This document shows positions 24,989-57,782 of a DNA stretch of 64,000 bases, in pieces (position 1 is the first letter of the stretch; the number at the start of each line of letters is the position of its first letter). Source of the stretch: Escherichia coli (GTDB lineage Bacteria > Pseudomonadota > Gammaproteobacteria > Enterobacterales > Enterobacteriaceae); the NCBI RefSeq assembly GCF_030013595.1, contig NZ_CP122768.1; one strand, given 5' to 3'. Under the pieces are notes generated by a model that had not been told where the DNA came from, did no database searches, and saw only the letters and a list, made by a program, of their open reading frames with translations. A program made the translations under genes and the position numbers.

Positions 24989-25064
<76 letters not shown>

Positions 25065-25099
25065 TTGGGTGGTCTGTGCTTTACAGCACTTTCAAATTT

Positions 25100-25175
<76 letters not shown>

Positions 25176-25332
25176 TTAATCTTCGTCTTTCGAACCGCTA
25201 CTGCCTTGGCTGCCTTCACTCACCTTAGTCACTTACTTTTGTAAGCTCCCAAGGATTCGTTCAGTTGCCGCCTTGTCGCAATTCGAAATACTGCGATTGG
25301 GTGGTCTGTGCTTTGCAGCACTTTTCAAATTT

Positions 25333-25408
<76 letters not shown>

Positions 25409-54561: not shown

Positions 54562-54637
54562 GCCCGGATAGCTCAGTCGGTAGAGCAGGGGATTGAAAAT
54601 CCCCGTGTCCTTGGTTCGATTCCGAGTCCGGGCACCA
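54562..54637 (+). tRNA. pheU: tRNA-Phe (GAA)
   Basis: gcccggatagctcagtcggtagagcaggggattgaaaatccccgtgtccttggttcgattccgagtccgggcacca, 76 nt, followed by hairpin ggacctcc/ggaggtcc plus TTTTT at 54653-54678. Confidence 0.95.
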
Positions 54638-54834
54638 AATTCATATCAACGGACCTCCACGGAGGTCCGTTTTTCGTTTCAGAACACCATGATTTAAGTG
54701 TTCTTCCTCCAAATCAATTCTACCGAACTCAACCAAATTCTCCCCACATCAACCTCATTGTGTGGGTATAATTGCGGGTATACCCCAGTTCGACAGAATT
54801 TGTACCCTCTTTAACGCATTCAGAAGGCTGAACT

Positions 54835-56097
54835 ATGGCACTGACTGACGCAAAAATCCGGGCTGCAAAGCCCACTGACAAGGCTTATAAACTCACTGAC
54901 GGGGCCGGCATGTTCCTGCTGGTTCATCCTAATGGTTCCCGTTACTGGCGTCTCCGTTATCGTATTCTGGGTAAGGAGAAGACTCTGGCACTTGGTGTGT
55001 ATCCGGAAGTTTCTCTCTCCGAAGCTCGTACAAAACGGGATGAGGCCCGAAAACTGATTTCAGAGGGGATTGACCCTTGCGAACAGAAAAGAGTTAAAAA
55101 AGTTGTCCCTGATTTACAGCTCTCTTTTGAACATATTGCACGACGCTGGCATGCCAGTAATAAACAATGGGCACAATCACACAGCGATAAAGTACTCAAA
55201 AGCCTCGAGACACACGTTTTCCCCTTTATCGGCAACCGGGATATCACAACACTCAATACCCCGGACCTGCTTATCCCTGTTCGTGCTGCAGAAGCAAAAC
55301 AAATTTATGAAATCGCCAGTCGTCTGCAGCAAAGAATATCTGCTGTAATGCGTTATGCCGTACAGTCTGGCATCATCAGATATAACCCGGCTCTGGATAT
55401 GGCTGGTGCATTGACCACGGTAAAACGCCAGCATCGCCCTGCTCTGGATCTTTCACGCCTGCCTGAACTTCTGTCGCGTATTGACGGTTATAAAGGCCAG
55501 CCTGTCACCCGACTGGCAGTTATGCTGAATTTACTGGTTTTTATTCGTTCCAGTGAACTCAGATATGCCCGCTGGTCTGAAATTGATATTGACAATGCCA
55601 TGTGGACTATTCCAGCCGAACGCGAACCTCTGCCAGGCGTAAAATTTTCATACCGGGGCTCCAAGATGCGAACACCACATCTTGTGCCACTCAGCCAACA
55701 GGCTGTAGCCATACTGGCAGAACTTCAGACATGGGCAGGTGAAAATGGTCTGATCTTTACGGGAGCACATGACCCACGTAAACCAATCAGTGAAAACACC
55801 GTAAATAAAGCCCTGAGGGTTATGGGGTATGACACAACCCAGGATGTCTGTGGTCATGGATTCCGGGCGATGGCATGTAGTGCATTAATAGAATCAGGTT
55901 TGTGGTCCCGCGATGCTGTGGAACGCCAGATGAGCCATCAGGAGCGTAATGGTGTACGTGCTGCGTATATCCATAAAGCCGAACATCTGGAAGAACGTCG
56001 ACTTATGCTACAGTGGTGGGCAGATTTTCTGGATGCGAACAGAGAACAATGTATCAGCCCGTTTGAATATGCAAAGATTAACAATCCATTAAAATAG
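54835..56097 (+). CDS. int: P4-type tyrosine integrase of a tRNA-Phe-associated island, 420 aa
   Basis: Intact ORF (MALTDAKIRAAKPTDKAYKLTDGAGMFLLVHPNGSRYWRLRYRILGKEKTLALGVYPEVSLSEARTKRDEARK...) with C-terminal catalytic region (HGFRAMA...RLMLQWW); sits directly 3' of a tRNA. Confidence 0.85.
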   Translation: MALTDAKIRAAKPTDKAYKLTDGAGMFLLVHPNGSRYWRLRYRILGKEKTLALGVYPEVSLSEARTKRDEARKLISEGIDPCEQKRVKKVVPDLQLSFEHIARRWHASNKQWAQSHSDKVLKSLETHVFPFIGNRDITTLNTPDLLIPVRAAEAKQIYEIASRLQQRISAVMRYAVQSGIIRYNPALDMAGALTTVKRQHRPALDLSRLPELLSRIDGYKGQPVTRLAVMLNLLVFIRSSELRYARWSEIDIDNAMWTIPAEREPLPGVKFSYRGSKMRTPHLVPLSQQAVAILAELQTWAGENGLIFTGAHDPRKPISENTVNKALRVMGYDTTQDVCGHGFRAMACSALIESGLWSRDAVERQMSHQERNGVRAAYIHKAEHLEERRLMLQWWADFLDANREQCISPFEYAKINNPLK

Positions 56098-56282
56098 TAA
56101 TCATCCCGGGCAGCTAGCCCGGGAATTATTTTCTGAATATTTTTCTTTGTGAGTAACTGGAAAAAGGATAGCGAAGTAAATTACTTTAATGAATTATTCC
56201 AGGGGCTCATTAAAGTTCTTTCGTAATACTTTGTAGTCAAACACGTTATGGCTGGCATCAAAAACCAGGTAATGACTCCAAC

Positions 56283-56780
56283 TTATTGATAGTGTTTTAT
56301 GTTCAGATAATGCCCGATGACCTTGTCATGCAGCTCCACCGATTTTGAGAACGACAGTGACTTCCGTCCCAGCCTTGCCAGATGTTGTCTCAGATTATGT
56401 CGCTCAATGCGCTGAGTGTAACGCTTGCTGATAACGTGCAGCTTTCCCTTCAGGCGTGATTCATACAGCGGCCAGCCATCCGTCATCTATACCACGACCT
56501 CAAAGGCCGACAGCAGGCTCAGAATACGCTCCAGTGTGGCCAGAGTGCGTTCACCGAAGACGTGCGCCACAACCGTCCTCCGTATCCTGTCATACGCGTA
56601 AAACAGCCAGCGCTGACGTGATTTAGCACCGACGTAGCCCCACTGTTCGTCCATTTCAGCGCAGACAATCACATCACTGCCCGGTTGTATGCGCGAGGTT
56701 ACCGACTGCGGCCTGAGTTTTTTAAGTGACGTAAAACCGTGTTGAGGCCAACGCCCATAATGCGTGCACTGGCGCGACAT
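56283..56780 (-). pseudogene. insB: IS1 insB disrupted by an in-frame TAG stop; also appears to carry a 6-bp in-frame deletion
   Basis: Two ORF-track fragments (56487..56780 and 56283..56486) are separated only by TAG at 56487-56489 where canonical InsB has Trp (..VVIWMTDGW..); fragment 2 lacks two residues relative to my recollection of InsB (HNLNLRQ vs HNLRQ here). Confidence 0.7.
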
Positions 56781-56974
56781 CCGACGCCATTCATGGCCAT
56801 ATCAATGATTTTCTGGTGCTTACCGGGCTGAGAGGCGGTGTAAGTGAACTGTAGTTGCCATGTTTTACGGCAATGAGAGCAGAGATAGCGCTGATGTCCG
56901 GCAGTGCTTTTGCCGTTACGCACCACGCCTTCAGTAGCGGAGCAGGAAGGACATCTGATGGAAATGGAAGCCAC
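56699..56974 (-). CDS. insA: IS1 InsA (transposition inhibitor / N-terminal part of InsAB'), 91 aa
   Basis: GTG start; [42 protein letters not shown]... with Zn-finger Cys pairs. Confidence 0.9.
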
Positions 56975-57201
56975 GCAAGCACCTTAAAATCACCATCATA
57001 CACTAAATCAGTAAGTTGGCAGCATTACCGAAATCCCCATCCTTTAGGGCAGTGAGAATGTCAATAATAGCAGACCACATCATGAGTCATTTTGACCGAC
57101 ACATGCAGAAGCAGAGGCTCCATCCCATTTTATACCTACCCTATAACACTTAGAAAAACAACATGTTAAAAATGTCTATTGGAAACAATTTTATTTCCAA
57201 T

Positions 57202-57220
57202 TGTAATGATAACCATTCTC
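57202..57220 (+). promoter_or_regulatory. Fur box upstream of fecI
   Basis: tgtaatgataaccattctc matches the 19-bp Fur consensus GATAATGATAATCATTATC at 15 of 19 positions; about 45 bp upstream of fecI. Confidence 0.6.
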
Positions 57221-57264
57221 ATATTAATATGGCTACGTGATAATTAACTTTTGATGCACTCCGC

Positions 57265-57782
57265 ATGTCTGACCGCGCCACTACCACAGCTTCCTTAACG
57301 TTCGAGTCGCTTTATGGCACACATCACGGCTGGTTGAAAAGCTGGCTGACGCGCAAACTCCAGTCTGCTTTTGATGCAGATGACATTGCCCAGGACACTT
57401 TTTTGCGGGTAATGGTCAGCGAAACGCTCTCGACGATCCGCGATCCTCGCTCCTTCCTGTGCACTATCGCCAAACGCGTGATGGTGGACCTGTTTCGCCG
57501 AAACGCGCTGGAAAAAGCGTATCTGGAGATGCTGGCGCTTATGCCGGAGGGGGGAGCGCCTTCACCTGAGGAACGCGAAAGCCAACTCGAGACCCTACAA
57601 CTCCTCGACAGCATGCTGGACGGGCTAAACGGCAAAACACGTGAAGCGTTTCTGCTTTCGCAACTGGATGGTCTGACATACAGCGAGATTGCGCACAAAC
57701 TCGGTGTTTCCATCAGCTCCGTGAAAAAATACGTGGCGAAAGCCGTCGAGCACTGCCTGCTGTTCCGTCTGGAGTATGGGTT

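What the first reader, a model, noticed from the sequence alone, without database searches (positions are those of the whole stretch)
56283..56780. This IS1 copy cannot make its own transposase: premature TAG and a 6-bp deletion in insB
The insB frame has TAG at 56487-56489 where canonical IS1 has a Trp codon (TGG), splitting it into 97- and 67-codon pieces. The element is 762 bp rather than the usual 768, and two residues (NL) present in my recollection of InsB are missing here. insA, the A6C frameshift site and both inverted repeats look intact, so it could still be moved in trans.
Basis: partly seen in the sequence, partly recalled or inferred. Interest (0 to 1): 0.3.

Follow-up and report, generated by a model that had tools for sequence, protein, structure and literature searches.

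The report
Defective IS1F copy beside fec operon
This is the well-known, already-annotated "IS1F" insertion sequence that sits next to the E. coli ferric-citrate (fec) genes: its transposase gene carries an inherited stop codon, and in this lineage also a small 6-bp deletion, so the finding is correct but ordinary.

Summary
Window 56268-57029 (minus strand) is a 762-bp IS1. Its insA gene, A6C frameshift site and both terminal repeats are intact. insB' is broken by TAG (56487-56489) where other IS1 elements have TGG (Trp), and one unit of an AATCTG-AATCTG tandem is missing (residues NL).

It is the ortholog of E. coli K-12 IS1F. It has the same junction with ykiE/fecI and differs by 5 SNPs plus the deletion. 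K-12 IS1F has the same TAG, and its insB7 (b4576) is annotated as a pseudogene. RefSeq annotates identical copies of the window's element as "IS1 family transposase; internal stop".

An IS1F-specific 89-mer carrying the TAG occurs exactly in 2305 E. coli records, so a base-call error is excluded. The 6-bp deletion is a minority allele (about 91-190 records), tied to one island layout: tRNA-Phe, integrase, IS1, fec.

Published 2025 experiments show that K-12 IS1F is immobile alone but moves when InsAB' is supplied in trans.

Seen in passing: rare strains carry an intact TGG allele at the same fec-linked site, and one ETEC lineage has a further copy of it flanked by a target-site duplication.

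Verdict: already known, low interest.

The parts
56268..57029 (-). Whole IS1 element of IS1F type, 762 bp
   Evidence: It aligns end to end with K-12 IS1F (5 SNPs plus one 6-bp gap) and with IS1A (75 differences). Copies 100% identical are present in at least 21 E. coli chromosomes.
57007..57029 (-). Left terminal inverted repeat (IRL), GGTAATGCTGCCAACTTACTGAT
   Evidence: It is identical to the K-12 IS1F IRL.
56268..56290 (-). Right terminal inverted repeat (IRR), ...ATCAATAAGTTGGAGTCATTACC
   Evidence: It is identical to the IS1A IRR and differs from the K-12 IS1F IRR at one base (alignment column 750).
56699..56974 (-). insA, intact, 91 aa (zinc ribbon plus HTH; repressor and DNA-binding module)
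   Evidence: Pfam Zn_ribbon_InsA and HTH_Tnp_IS1 match.
56717..56723 (-). A6C (AAAAAAC) -1 programmed frameshift site, intact
   Evidence: It lies at element positions 307-313 and is identical to IS1A and IS1F.
56487..56780 (-). insB' 5' piece (97 codons), ending in the premature TAG at 56487-56489
   Evidence: It covers Pfam DDE_Tnp_IS1 profile positions 1-61 of 131.
56487..56489 (-). Nonsense codon TAG, where other IS1 elements have TGG (Trp)
   Evidence: alignment columns 541-543. The TAG is shared with K-12 IS1F and all 12 other TAG-type copies examined.
   Evidence: It covers Pfam DDE_Tnp_IS1 profile positions 63-131.
56391..56397 (-). Site of the 6-bp deletion: the single remaining AATCTG unit, with the junction at 56396|56397
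   Evidence: IS1F has AATCTGAATCTG here. The exact position of the deletion within the repeat is ambiguous.
57030..57264 (.). Conserved junction with the fec locus: ykiE (57061-57129, minus strand) and the fecI upstream region; fecI starts at 57265
   Evidence: The 15-bp flank AAGGATGGGGATTTC is identical in all fec-linked copies examined. The junction is present in 2601 records from 2597 of 5426 genomes.
56194..56268 (-). 75-bp remnant of a phosphoethanolamine-transferase gene abutting the IRR; there is no target-site duplication
   Evidence: PGAP annotation of the identical locus, mapped onto the window. The flanks GGGGATTTC and TGGTTTTTG do not match each other.

Best explanation
This is a non-autonomous (transposase-defective) copy of insertion sequence IS1, of the IS1F subtype. 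It is the copy that travels with the ferric-citrate (fecIRABCDE) locus of E. coli.

How it works:
- Transcription from the IRL promoter and normal translation still give InsA, the 91-aa zinc-finger/HTH repressor.
- The rare -1 frameshift at A6C now gives a 162-aa InsAB' fragment. It stops at TAG in the middle of the DDE catalytic domain, so no active transposase is made in cis.
- The TAG is inherited, not a local event. It is shared with K-12 IS1F (insB7 pseudogene) and with most fec-linked copies.
- The 6-bp deletion is a later, lineage-specific loss of one unit of a tandem hexamer, most likely by slippage, in a reading frame that was already dead.
- Both ends are intact, so the element remains a substrate for InsAB' supplied by another IS1 copy.

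Shown here: the sequence lesions, the orthology with IS1F, and the distribution of the alleles. Shown by others, for the K-12 ortholog only: no self-mobility, and mobility in trans. Inferred: the slippage origin of the deletion, and trans-mobilisability of this particular copy.
For: Lesions and intact parts.

Orthology with K-12 IS1F: the ykiE/fecI junction is identical and the elements are 98.6% identical.

Existing annotation: K-12 insB7 (b4576) is marked as a pseudogene. PGAP marks the identical element in O103:H2 and a near-identical one in ETEC H10407 as 'IS1 family transposase; internal stop'.

Distribution of the TAG allele:
- The TAG 89-mer matches exactly in 2305 E. coli records.
- The fec-IRL junction is found in 2601 records.
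- Three of three randomly sampled TAG carriers were the fec-linked copy.

Pseudogene decay: further independent insB' lesions occur in other TAG lineages. These are C322T (an extra stop), a 1-bp deletion in H10407, and the 6-bp deletion here. insA is intact in 16 of 16 copies examined.

Experiments on K-12: a strain with only IS1B, C, D and F shows virtually no IS1 transposition. With InsAB' over-produced in trans, IS1F was the source of 44% of 48 insertions (PMC12428005, PMC12903888).
Against: No experiment exists on this exact allele (IRL of IS1F type combined with IRR of IS1A type, plus the 6-bp deletion).

IS1 transposase acts strongly in cis. The trans effect in K-12 needed over-production, so natural trans-mobilisation may be negligible.

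TAG-type copies found at non-fec sites on plasmids show no target-site duplications. They therefore do not prove simple transposition of a TAG copy in nature.

The two 2025 papers do not mention the stop codon. They attribute IS1F immobility loosely to 'mismatches'.
Confidence: 0.93

Rival explanations
1. The TAG, or the 6-bp gap, is a sequencing or assembly error in this window, and the element is really intact.
For: None was found. A single-base G-to-A change is the kind of difference an error could produce.
Against: The identical 762-bp sequence occurs in at least 21 independently sequenced complete genomes, and 91 records match at 99% or better. The TAG is in K-12 MG1655 and in 2305 records. 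The authors of PMC12428005 re-sequenced the K-12 IS1 copies.
Confidence: 0.01
2. The interrupted gene is still functional. Either the TAG is read through, or translation restarts at the ATG that directly follows it (TAGATG). In the second case a GAGG lies 11 nt upstream of the ATG. The result would be a two-piece transposase that reassembles.
For: The sequence shows TAG immediately followed by ATG, and a possible weak Shine-Dalgarno sequence (GAGG) upstream. Together the two pieces cover almost the whole DDE_Tnp_IS1 profile.
Against: K-12 cells retaining only IS1B, C, D and F gave no detectable IS1 insertions in two assays (PMC12428005). The break falls inside the catalytic domain. TAG lineages accumulate further disruptive lesions in insB' (an extra stop, a 1-bp deletion, a 6-bp deletion), as expected of a pseudogene. 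Intact relatives use TGG.
Confidence: 0.03
3. The defective copy is retained because it is useful. It could serve as an InsA-only module that represses other IS1 copies in trans, or as a fixed structural or regulatory boundary of the fec locus. This does not exclude the main explanation.
For: insA is intact in 16 of 16 copies while insB' decays. The full-length element and its fec-side junction are kept in about 48% of E. coli genomes. From established IS1 literature, as summarised in the introduction of PMC12428005, InsA represses the IS1 promoter and inhibits transposition.
Against: The copies differ by only a handful of SNPs, so there is no statistical power to show purifying selection on insA. 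insA is short (276 nt), so it would often stay intact by chance. Recent horizontal spread of the fec island explains the conservation equally well. No experiment links IS1F InsA to any phenotype.
Confidence: 0.1

Closest known systems
IS1F of E. coli K-12 (NC_000913.3 4518472-4519239; insA7 b4294, insB7 b4576 pseudogene)
   Same: Same subtype. Both have the same TAG at the same codon, the same IRL, and the same junction with ykiE/fecI. Outside the deletion they differ at only 5 of 762 aligned positions.
   Different: The window copy lacks 6 bp (NL). Its IRR is the IS1A-type IRR (column 750 A instead of G). It keeps His in the InsA CSHC motif where K-12 has Pro. On its IRR side it abuts a P4-type integrase and tRNA-Phe island, not yjhU.
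Canonical IS1 (IS1A/IS1E of K-12, the 'consensus' 768-bp element)
   Same: Same architecture: 23-bp terminal repeats, insA, the A6C frameshift and insB'. The same three Pfam domains match.
   Different: It differs at 75 positions (about 10%). The canonical element has TGG and a full 232-aa InsAB' and is autonomously mobile.
Intact IS1F-type elements (PGAP 'IS1-like element IS1F family transposase' WP_225379934.1; IS1X2)
   Same: The intact IS1F allele equals K-12 IS1F with the single change A542G. It occupies the same fec-linked site in strains 203740, S1-ZIM-01-A and ES5.
   Different: These elements have TGG and no deletion. In the ETEC strains 203740 and ATCC 43886 a second identical copy lies next to malM, flanked in 203740 by a 9-bp target duplication. 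Strain 203740 has 21 places matching the IS1F-type 89-mer.

Membership tests
IS1 family insertion sequence | Length of about 768 bp, bounded by imperfect terminal inverted repeats of about 23 bp beginning GGTRATG | tested here: met
   The element is 762 bp (768 minus 6). IRL is at 57007-57029 and IRR at 56268-56290.
IS1 family insertion sequence | insA followed by insB' in the -1 frame, joined by an A6C slippery site | tested here: met
   insA is at 56699-56974, A6C at 56717-56723, and the insB' frame follows. The insB' frame is interrupted, so the architecture is present but the product is not.
IS1 family insertion sequence | Protein domains Zn_ribbon_InsA, HTH_Tnp_IS1 and DDE_Tnp_IS1 | tested here: met
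   E-values were 9e-20, 9e-27 and 1.8e-70 (the last with the Trp codon restored). All scores are above the Pfam cut-offs.
IS1 family insertion sequence | 8-9 bp direct target-site duplication flanking the element | tested here: not met
   The flanks are GGGGATTTC and TGGTTTTTG. The IRR-side flank differs among fec-linked copies (three types), which indicates later rearrangement. This is a footprint of insertion history, not a condition of family membership.
IS1F subtype (type IV IS1 of K-12) | Near-identity to K-12 IS1F and about 10% divergence from consensus IS1 | tested here: met
   The element is 98.6% identical to IS1F with gaps counted. It has 75 differences from IS1A against 73 for IS1F. 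PMC12428005 also reports 73 mismatches.
IS1F subtype (type IV IS1 of K-12) | Orthologous position next to ykiE/fecI | tested here: met
   The 15-bp junction sequence and the gene order are identical.
Autonomous (self-mobilising) IS | Encodes a full-length transposase | tested here: not met
   The first stop in InsAB' is at codon 163 instead of 233. Only 61 of 131 DDE profile positions are retained.
Non-autonomous element mobilisable in trans | Transposes when transposase is supplied from another copy | not testable with these tools
   This was shown experimentally only for the K-12 ortholog (PMC12903888). The ends of this copy are each identical to an end known to be functional.

The most novel reading that the evidence does not exclude
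The fec-linked IS1F may be a dormant element only one base away from activity, rather than a dead one. On this reading, restoring TAG to TGG at the same chromosomal site re-awakened it, by back-mutation or by gene conversion from an IS1X2-like copy.

What the evidence shows: strains 203740, S1-ZIM-01-A and ES5 carry an intact TGG allele at this site. In the ETEC strains 203740 and ATCC 43886 an additional identical copy lies next to malM, flanked in 203740 by a target duplication. Strain 203740 has about 21 places matching the IS1F-type 89-mer.

Evidence on direction: the 3 kb of fec flank in strain 203740 is identical to K-12, whereas all more distant fec haplotypes carry TAG. Outgroup states at columns 156, 210 and 703 place the K-12/203740 haplotype as derived.

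The window's own copy would additionally need to tolerate, or repair, the NL deletion.
Probability: 0.3. Interest if true: 0.35.

Novelty: already known. Interest (0 to 1): 0.1.

Why it matters
It matters little beyond correct annotation. The element should be labelled as a defective IS1F (insB pseudogene) linked to the fec island at tRNA-Phe.

It is useful as a lineage marker. The 6-bp deletion tags one particular layout (integrase, phosphoethanolamine-transferase remnant, IS1, fec), which is found at both pheU and pheV.

The only wider point is the side observation that intact and nonsense alleles coexist at the same fec-linked site. A population-scale analysis could use this to ask how often a 'dead' IS copy is revived by reversion or gene conversion.

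Tried and rejected
1. Scan of GTDB species-representative genomes for the TAG-containing 38-mer. The only hit was a 547-bp contig in an Archangium violaceum assembly, 100% identical to IS1F and probably E. coli contamination. This says nothing about other species.

2. Search for natural proof that a TAG copy transposed. 27 plasmid records hold the exact TAG 89-mer, and I examined 10 of them.
   - Two are fec-bearing circles of 21-23 kb.
   - Eight are at non-fec sites: HicAB-adjacent IncF, IncK2/Z, an Enterobacter mcr-10 plasmid, an IncF site with two truncated copies, and one IS1A/IS1F mosaic.
   - None has a target-site duplication. Transposition, cointegrate formation and homologous recombination therefore cannot be told apart.

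3. The paper defining the IS1 D-D-E motif (Ohta et al. 2002, PMC151954) is not held. The assignment of catalytic residues rests on my recollection and on sequence context and is unverified: the D in WMTDGW just after the stop, and the E in RIERHNLNLRQ just before the deleted NL. Only the Pfam domain coordinates are a tool result.

4. Polarity of TAG versus TGG at the fec-linked site. Columns 156 and 542 fail the four-gamete test, so recombination or recurrent change has occurred. The direction cannot be settled from the few copies I could fetch.

5. The exact count of 6-bp-deletion carriers is only bracketed at 91-190 records, because the summary bands mix partial and joined alignments.

Full report
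**1. What is in the window**

Window 56268-57029 is an IS1 element on the minus strand.
- Its left end, GGTAATGCTGCCAACTTACTGAT, is at 57007-57029. This is the only match to the IS1 end pattern in the window, against 0.00 expected by chance.
- Its right end...ATCAATAAGTTGGAGTCATTACC, is at 56268-56290.
- The element is 762 bp long.
- insA (56699-56974, GTG start, 91 aa) is intact, and so is the A6C slippery site at 56717-56723.
- The insB frame is split. A 97-codon ORF (56487-56780) ends in TAG at 56487-56489. A 67-codon ORF (56283-56486) begins with the ATG immediately after that stop.

**2. Comparison with reference IS1 copies**

I took IS1A and IS1F from E. coli K-12 MG1655 and aligned them with the window element.
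- The window copy differs from IS1A at 75 positions. It differs from IS1F at only 5 positions plus one 6-bp gap.
- At the stop, IS1A reads TGG (Trp), while both IS1F and the window read TAG.
- The gap removes one unit of a tandem hexamer, AATCTG-AATCTG in IS1F and AACCTG-AATCTG in IS1A. This turns ERHNLNLRQ into ERHNLRQ. A repeat of this kind is a typical substrate for replication slippage, but that origin is inferred.
- After the programmed -1 frameshift the product would be 162 aa instead of 232.
- Pfam places the break between positions 61 and 62 of the 131-position DDE_Tnp_IS1 domain. The zinc-ribbon and HTH domains shared with InsA are complete.

**3. It is the fec-linked IS1F, and it is already annotated**
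- In K-12 the element next to ykiE/fecI is labelled 'insertion sequence:IS1F', with insA7 (b4294) as a gene and insB7 (b4576) as a pseudogene.
- The window has the same arrangement. fecI starts at 57265, and ykiE maps to 57061-57129.
- The 15 bp outside the IRL, AAGGATGGGGATTTC, are identical in K-12, the window and every other fec-linked copy I fetched.
- Copies 100% identical to the window's 762 bp occur in at least 21 complete E. coli chromosomes, including O103:H2, O121 and several ETEC strains. 91 records match at 99% or better.
- In O103:H2 FWSEC0007 (an identical 762-bp copy) and ETEC H10407 (99.9% identical, with one further 1-bp deletion) PGAP annotates the element as 'IS1 family transposase', a pseudogene with 'internal stop'.
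- The gene order there is tRNA-Phe, P4-type integrase, 75-bp phosphoethanolamine-transferase remnant, IS1, ykiE, fecIRA. The window has the same order: tRNA-Phe at 54562-54637 and the integrase at 54835-56097.
- Over 20 kb the window matches E. coli pheU-region chromosomes at 99.3-99.4% identity.

**4. A sequencing error is excluded, and the codon is not a special sense codon**
- An 89-base query specific to IS1F-type sequence shares no 28-mer with IS1A. With TAG it matches exactly in 2305 E. coli records. With TGG it matches exactly in 2889 records.
- The IS1F subgroup therefore normally has Trp at this codon, and the TAG is a common, heritable nonsense allele.
- Three of three TAG carriers sampled at even steps down the ranking were the fec-linked copy.
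- The ykiE/fecI-IRL junction is present in 2601 records from 2597 of 5426 genomes. This is close to the number of TAG records.
- The 6-bp deletion is much rarer: between 91 and 190 records have it, while 4952 records have undeleted IS1F-type sequence. In the copies I read it always goes with the same IRR-side flank, TGGTTTTTGATGCC.

**5. Signs of pseudogene decay**

Different TAG lineages carry different additional lesions in insB':
- a second stop, C322T, in ATCC 25922, Esc12 and a mosaic plasmid copy;
- a 1-bp deletion in H10407;
- the 6-bp deletion in the window, O103 and H10407 group.

insA is intact in all 16 copies compared. The sample is too small to claim selection on insA.

No copy has a target-site duplication. 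The IRR-side flank comes in three types: yjhU in K-12, TCCTCCCG..., and TGGTTTTTG.... The IRR side has therefore been rearranged repeatedly while the fec-side junction was kept.

**6. How it works**

- Shown by the sequence: InsA can be made and full-length InsAB' cannot.
- Shown by others for the K-12 ortholog: a strain keeping only IS1B, C, D and F gives essentially no IS1 insertions (PMC12428005). When InsAB' is over-produced in trans, IS1F supplies 44% of 48 sequenced insertions (PMC12903888).
- Inferred for this copy: it should behave the same way. Its IRL equals that of IS1F, and its IRR equals that of the mobile IS1A.
- Caveat: neither paper mentions the stop codon, and the trans effect required over-expression.
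- By my recollection of Ohta et al. 2002 (not readable here), the second Asp and the Glu of the catalytic triad lie in the lost C-terminal part. This assignment is unverified.

**7. Natural movement of TAG copies**
- 27 plasmid records contain the exact TAG 89-mer.
- Of the ten I examined, two are small fec-bearing circles and eight lie at non-fec sites.
- None has a target-site duplication, and one is an IS1A/IS1F mosaic.
- The allele has therefore reached new places, but the route cannot be determined. It could be transposition, cointegrates or recombination.

**8. Side observation: an intact allele at the same site**
- An element identical to K-12 IS1F except for TAG changed to TGG (A542G) occurs exactly in 13 records.
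- It occupies the same fec-linked site in strains 203740, S1-ZIM-01-A and ES5.
- In the ETEC strains 203740 and ATCC 43886 a second identical copy lies between a sopA-like gene and malM. In 203740 it is flanked by a 9-bp duplication, GAAATGAAG.
- Strain 203740 has 21 places matching the IS1F-type 89-mer.
- The 3-kb fec flank of 203740 is identical to K-12. The other TAG haplotypes differ from it by 5-11 bases.
- This is compatible with restoration of the Trp codon by reversion or gene conversion, followed by spread of the element.
- However, columns 156 and 542 conflict under the four-gamete test, so I leave the polarity open.

**9. Verdict**

This is the known and already annotated defective IS1F of the fec locus, carrying in addition a minor-allele 6-bp deletion. 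Novelty is 'already known' and interest is low.

Noticed in passing
L022 34416-35183 (NZ_CP025913.1 1824415-1825182); L024 and L025 1001-1768; L019 730-1497; L023 1001-1768: An intact (TGG) allele of the same fec-linked IS1F exists in rare strains and is identical to K-12 IS1F except for A542G. In the ETEC strains 203740 and ATCC 43886 an extra identical copy lies next to malM. In 203740 that copy (L019) is flanked by the 9-bp target duplication GAAATGAAG. This may be revival of a dead IS by reversion or gene conversion, but the polarity is unresolved.
   Followed up: partly
window 54562-56268: The IS1 lies at the inner edge of a tRNA-Phe (pheU) island: tRNA-Phe at 54562-54637, a P4-type tyrosine integrase at 54835-56097, then a 75-bp phosphoethanolamine-transferase remnant (56194-56268) cut by the IS1 IRR. 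The same module sits at pheV in ETEC H10407 (L002), so one island layout occupies two tRNA-Phe sites.
   Followed up: partly
window 56259-56267 and 57030-57038: There is no target-site duplication around the IS1 (GGGGATTTC against TGGTTTTTG in element orientation). Across strains the fec-side junction is constant, while the IRR side has three different neighbours. This suggests IS1-mediated adjacent deletions or rearrangements.
   Followed up: partly
L005 and L007 3030-3797; L002 4001-4761; L021 730-1497: Other IS1F-type copies carry independent extra lesions: C322T (a second stop) in ATCC 25922 and Esc12, and a 1-bp deletion at column 370 in H10407. An O157:H7 copy has TGG but a different stop (G382T).
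   Followed up: yes
L010 2530-3297 (plasmid pS65EC, NZ_CP036244.1): This is a mosaic IS1. The 5' third is IS1A-like and the 3' part is IS1F-like, including the TAG and the C322T stop. It is direct evidence of recombination between IS1 subtypes.
   Followed up: no
L008 (NZ_JPMI01000182.1, Archangium violaceum Cb vi76, 547-bp contig): The contig is 100% identical to the 3' 396 bp of E. coli K-12 IS1F, including the TAG. It is most likely E. coli contamination in a myxobacterial draft assembly.
   Followed up: no
L003 4473-5240, alignment column 156 (K-12 IS1F): K-12 IS1F InsA has Pro instead of His inside the second Cys pair of the zinc ribbon (CSPC against CSHC in the window and IS1A). The intact allele found at the fec site of strain 203740 and next to malM with a target-site duplication has the same Pro, so the substitution evidently does not abolish function.
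   Followed up: partly
window 24989-25408: Three tandem tRNA-Gly(GCC) genes lie on the minus strand. This is an ordinary E. coli tRNA cluster, unrelated to the finding.
   Followed up: no
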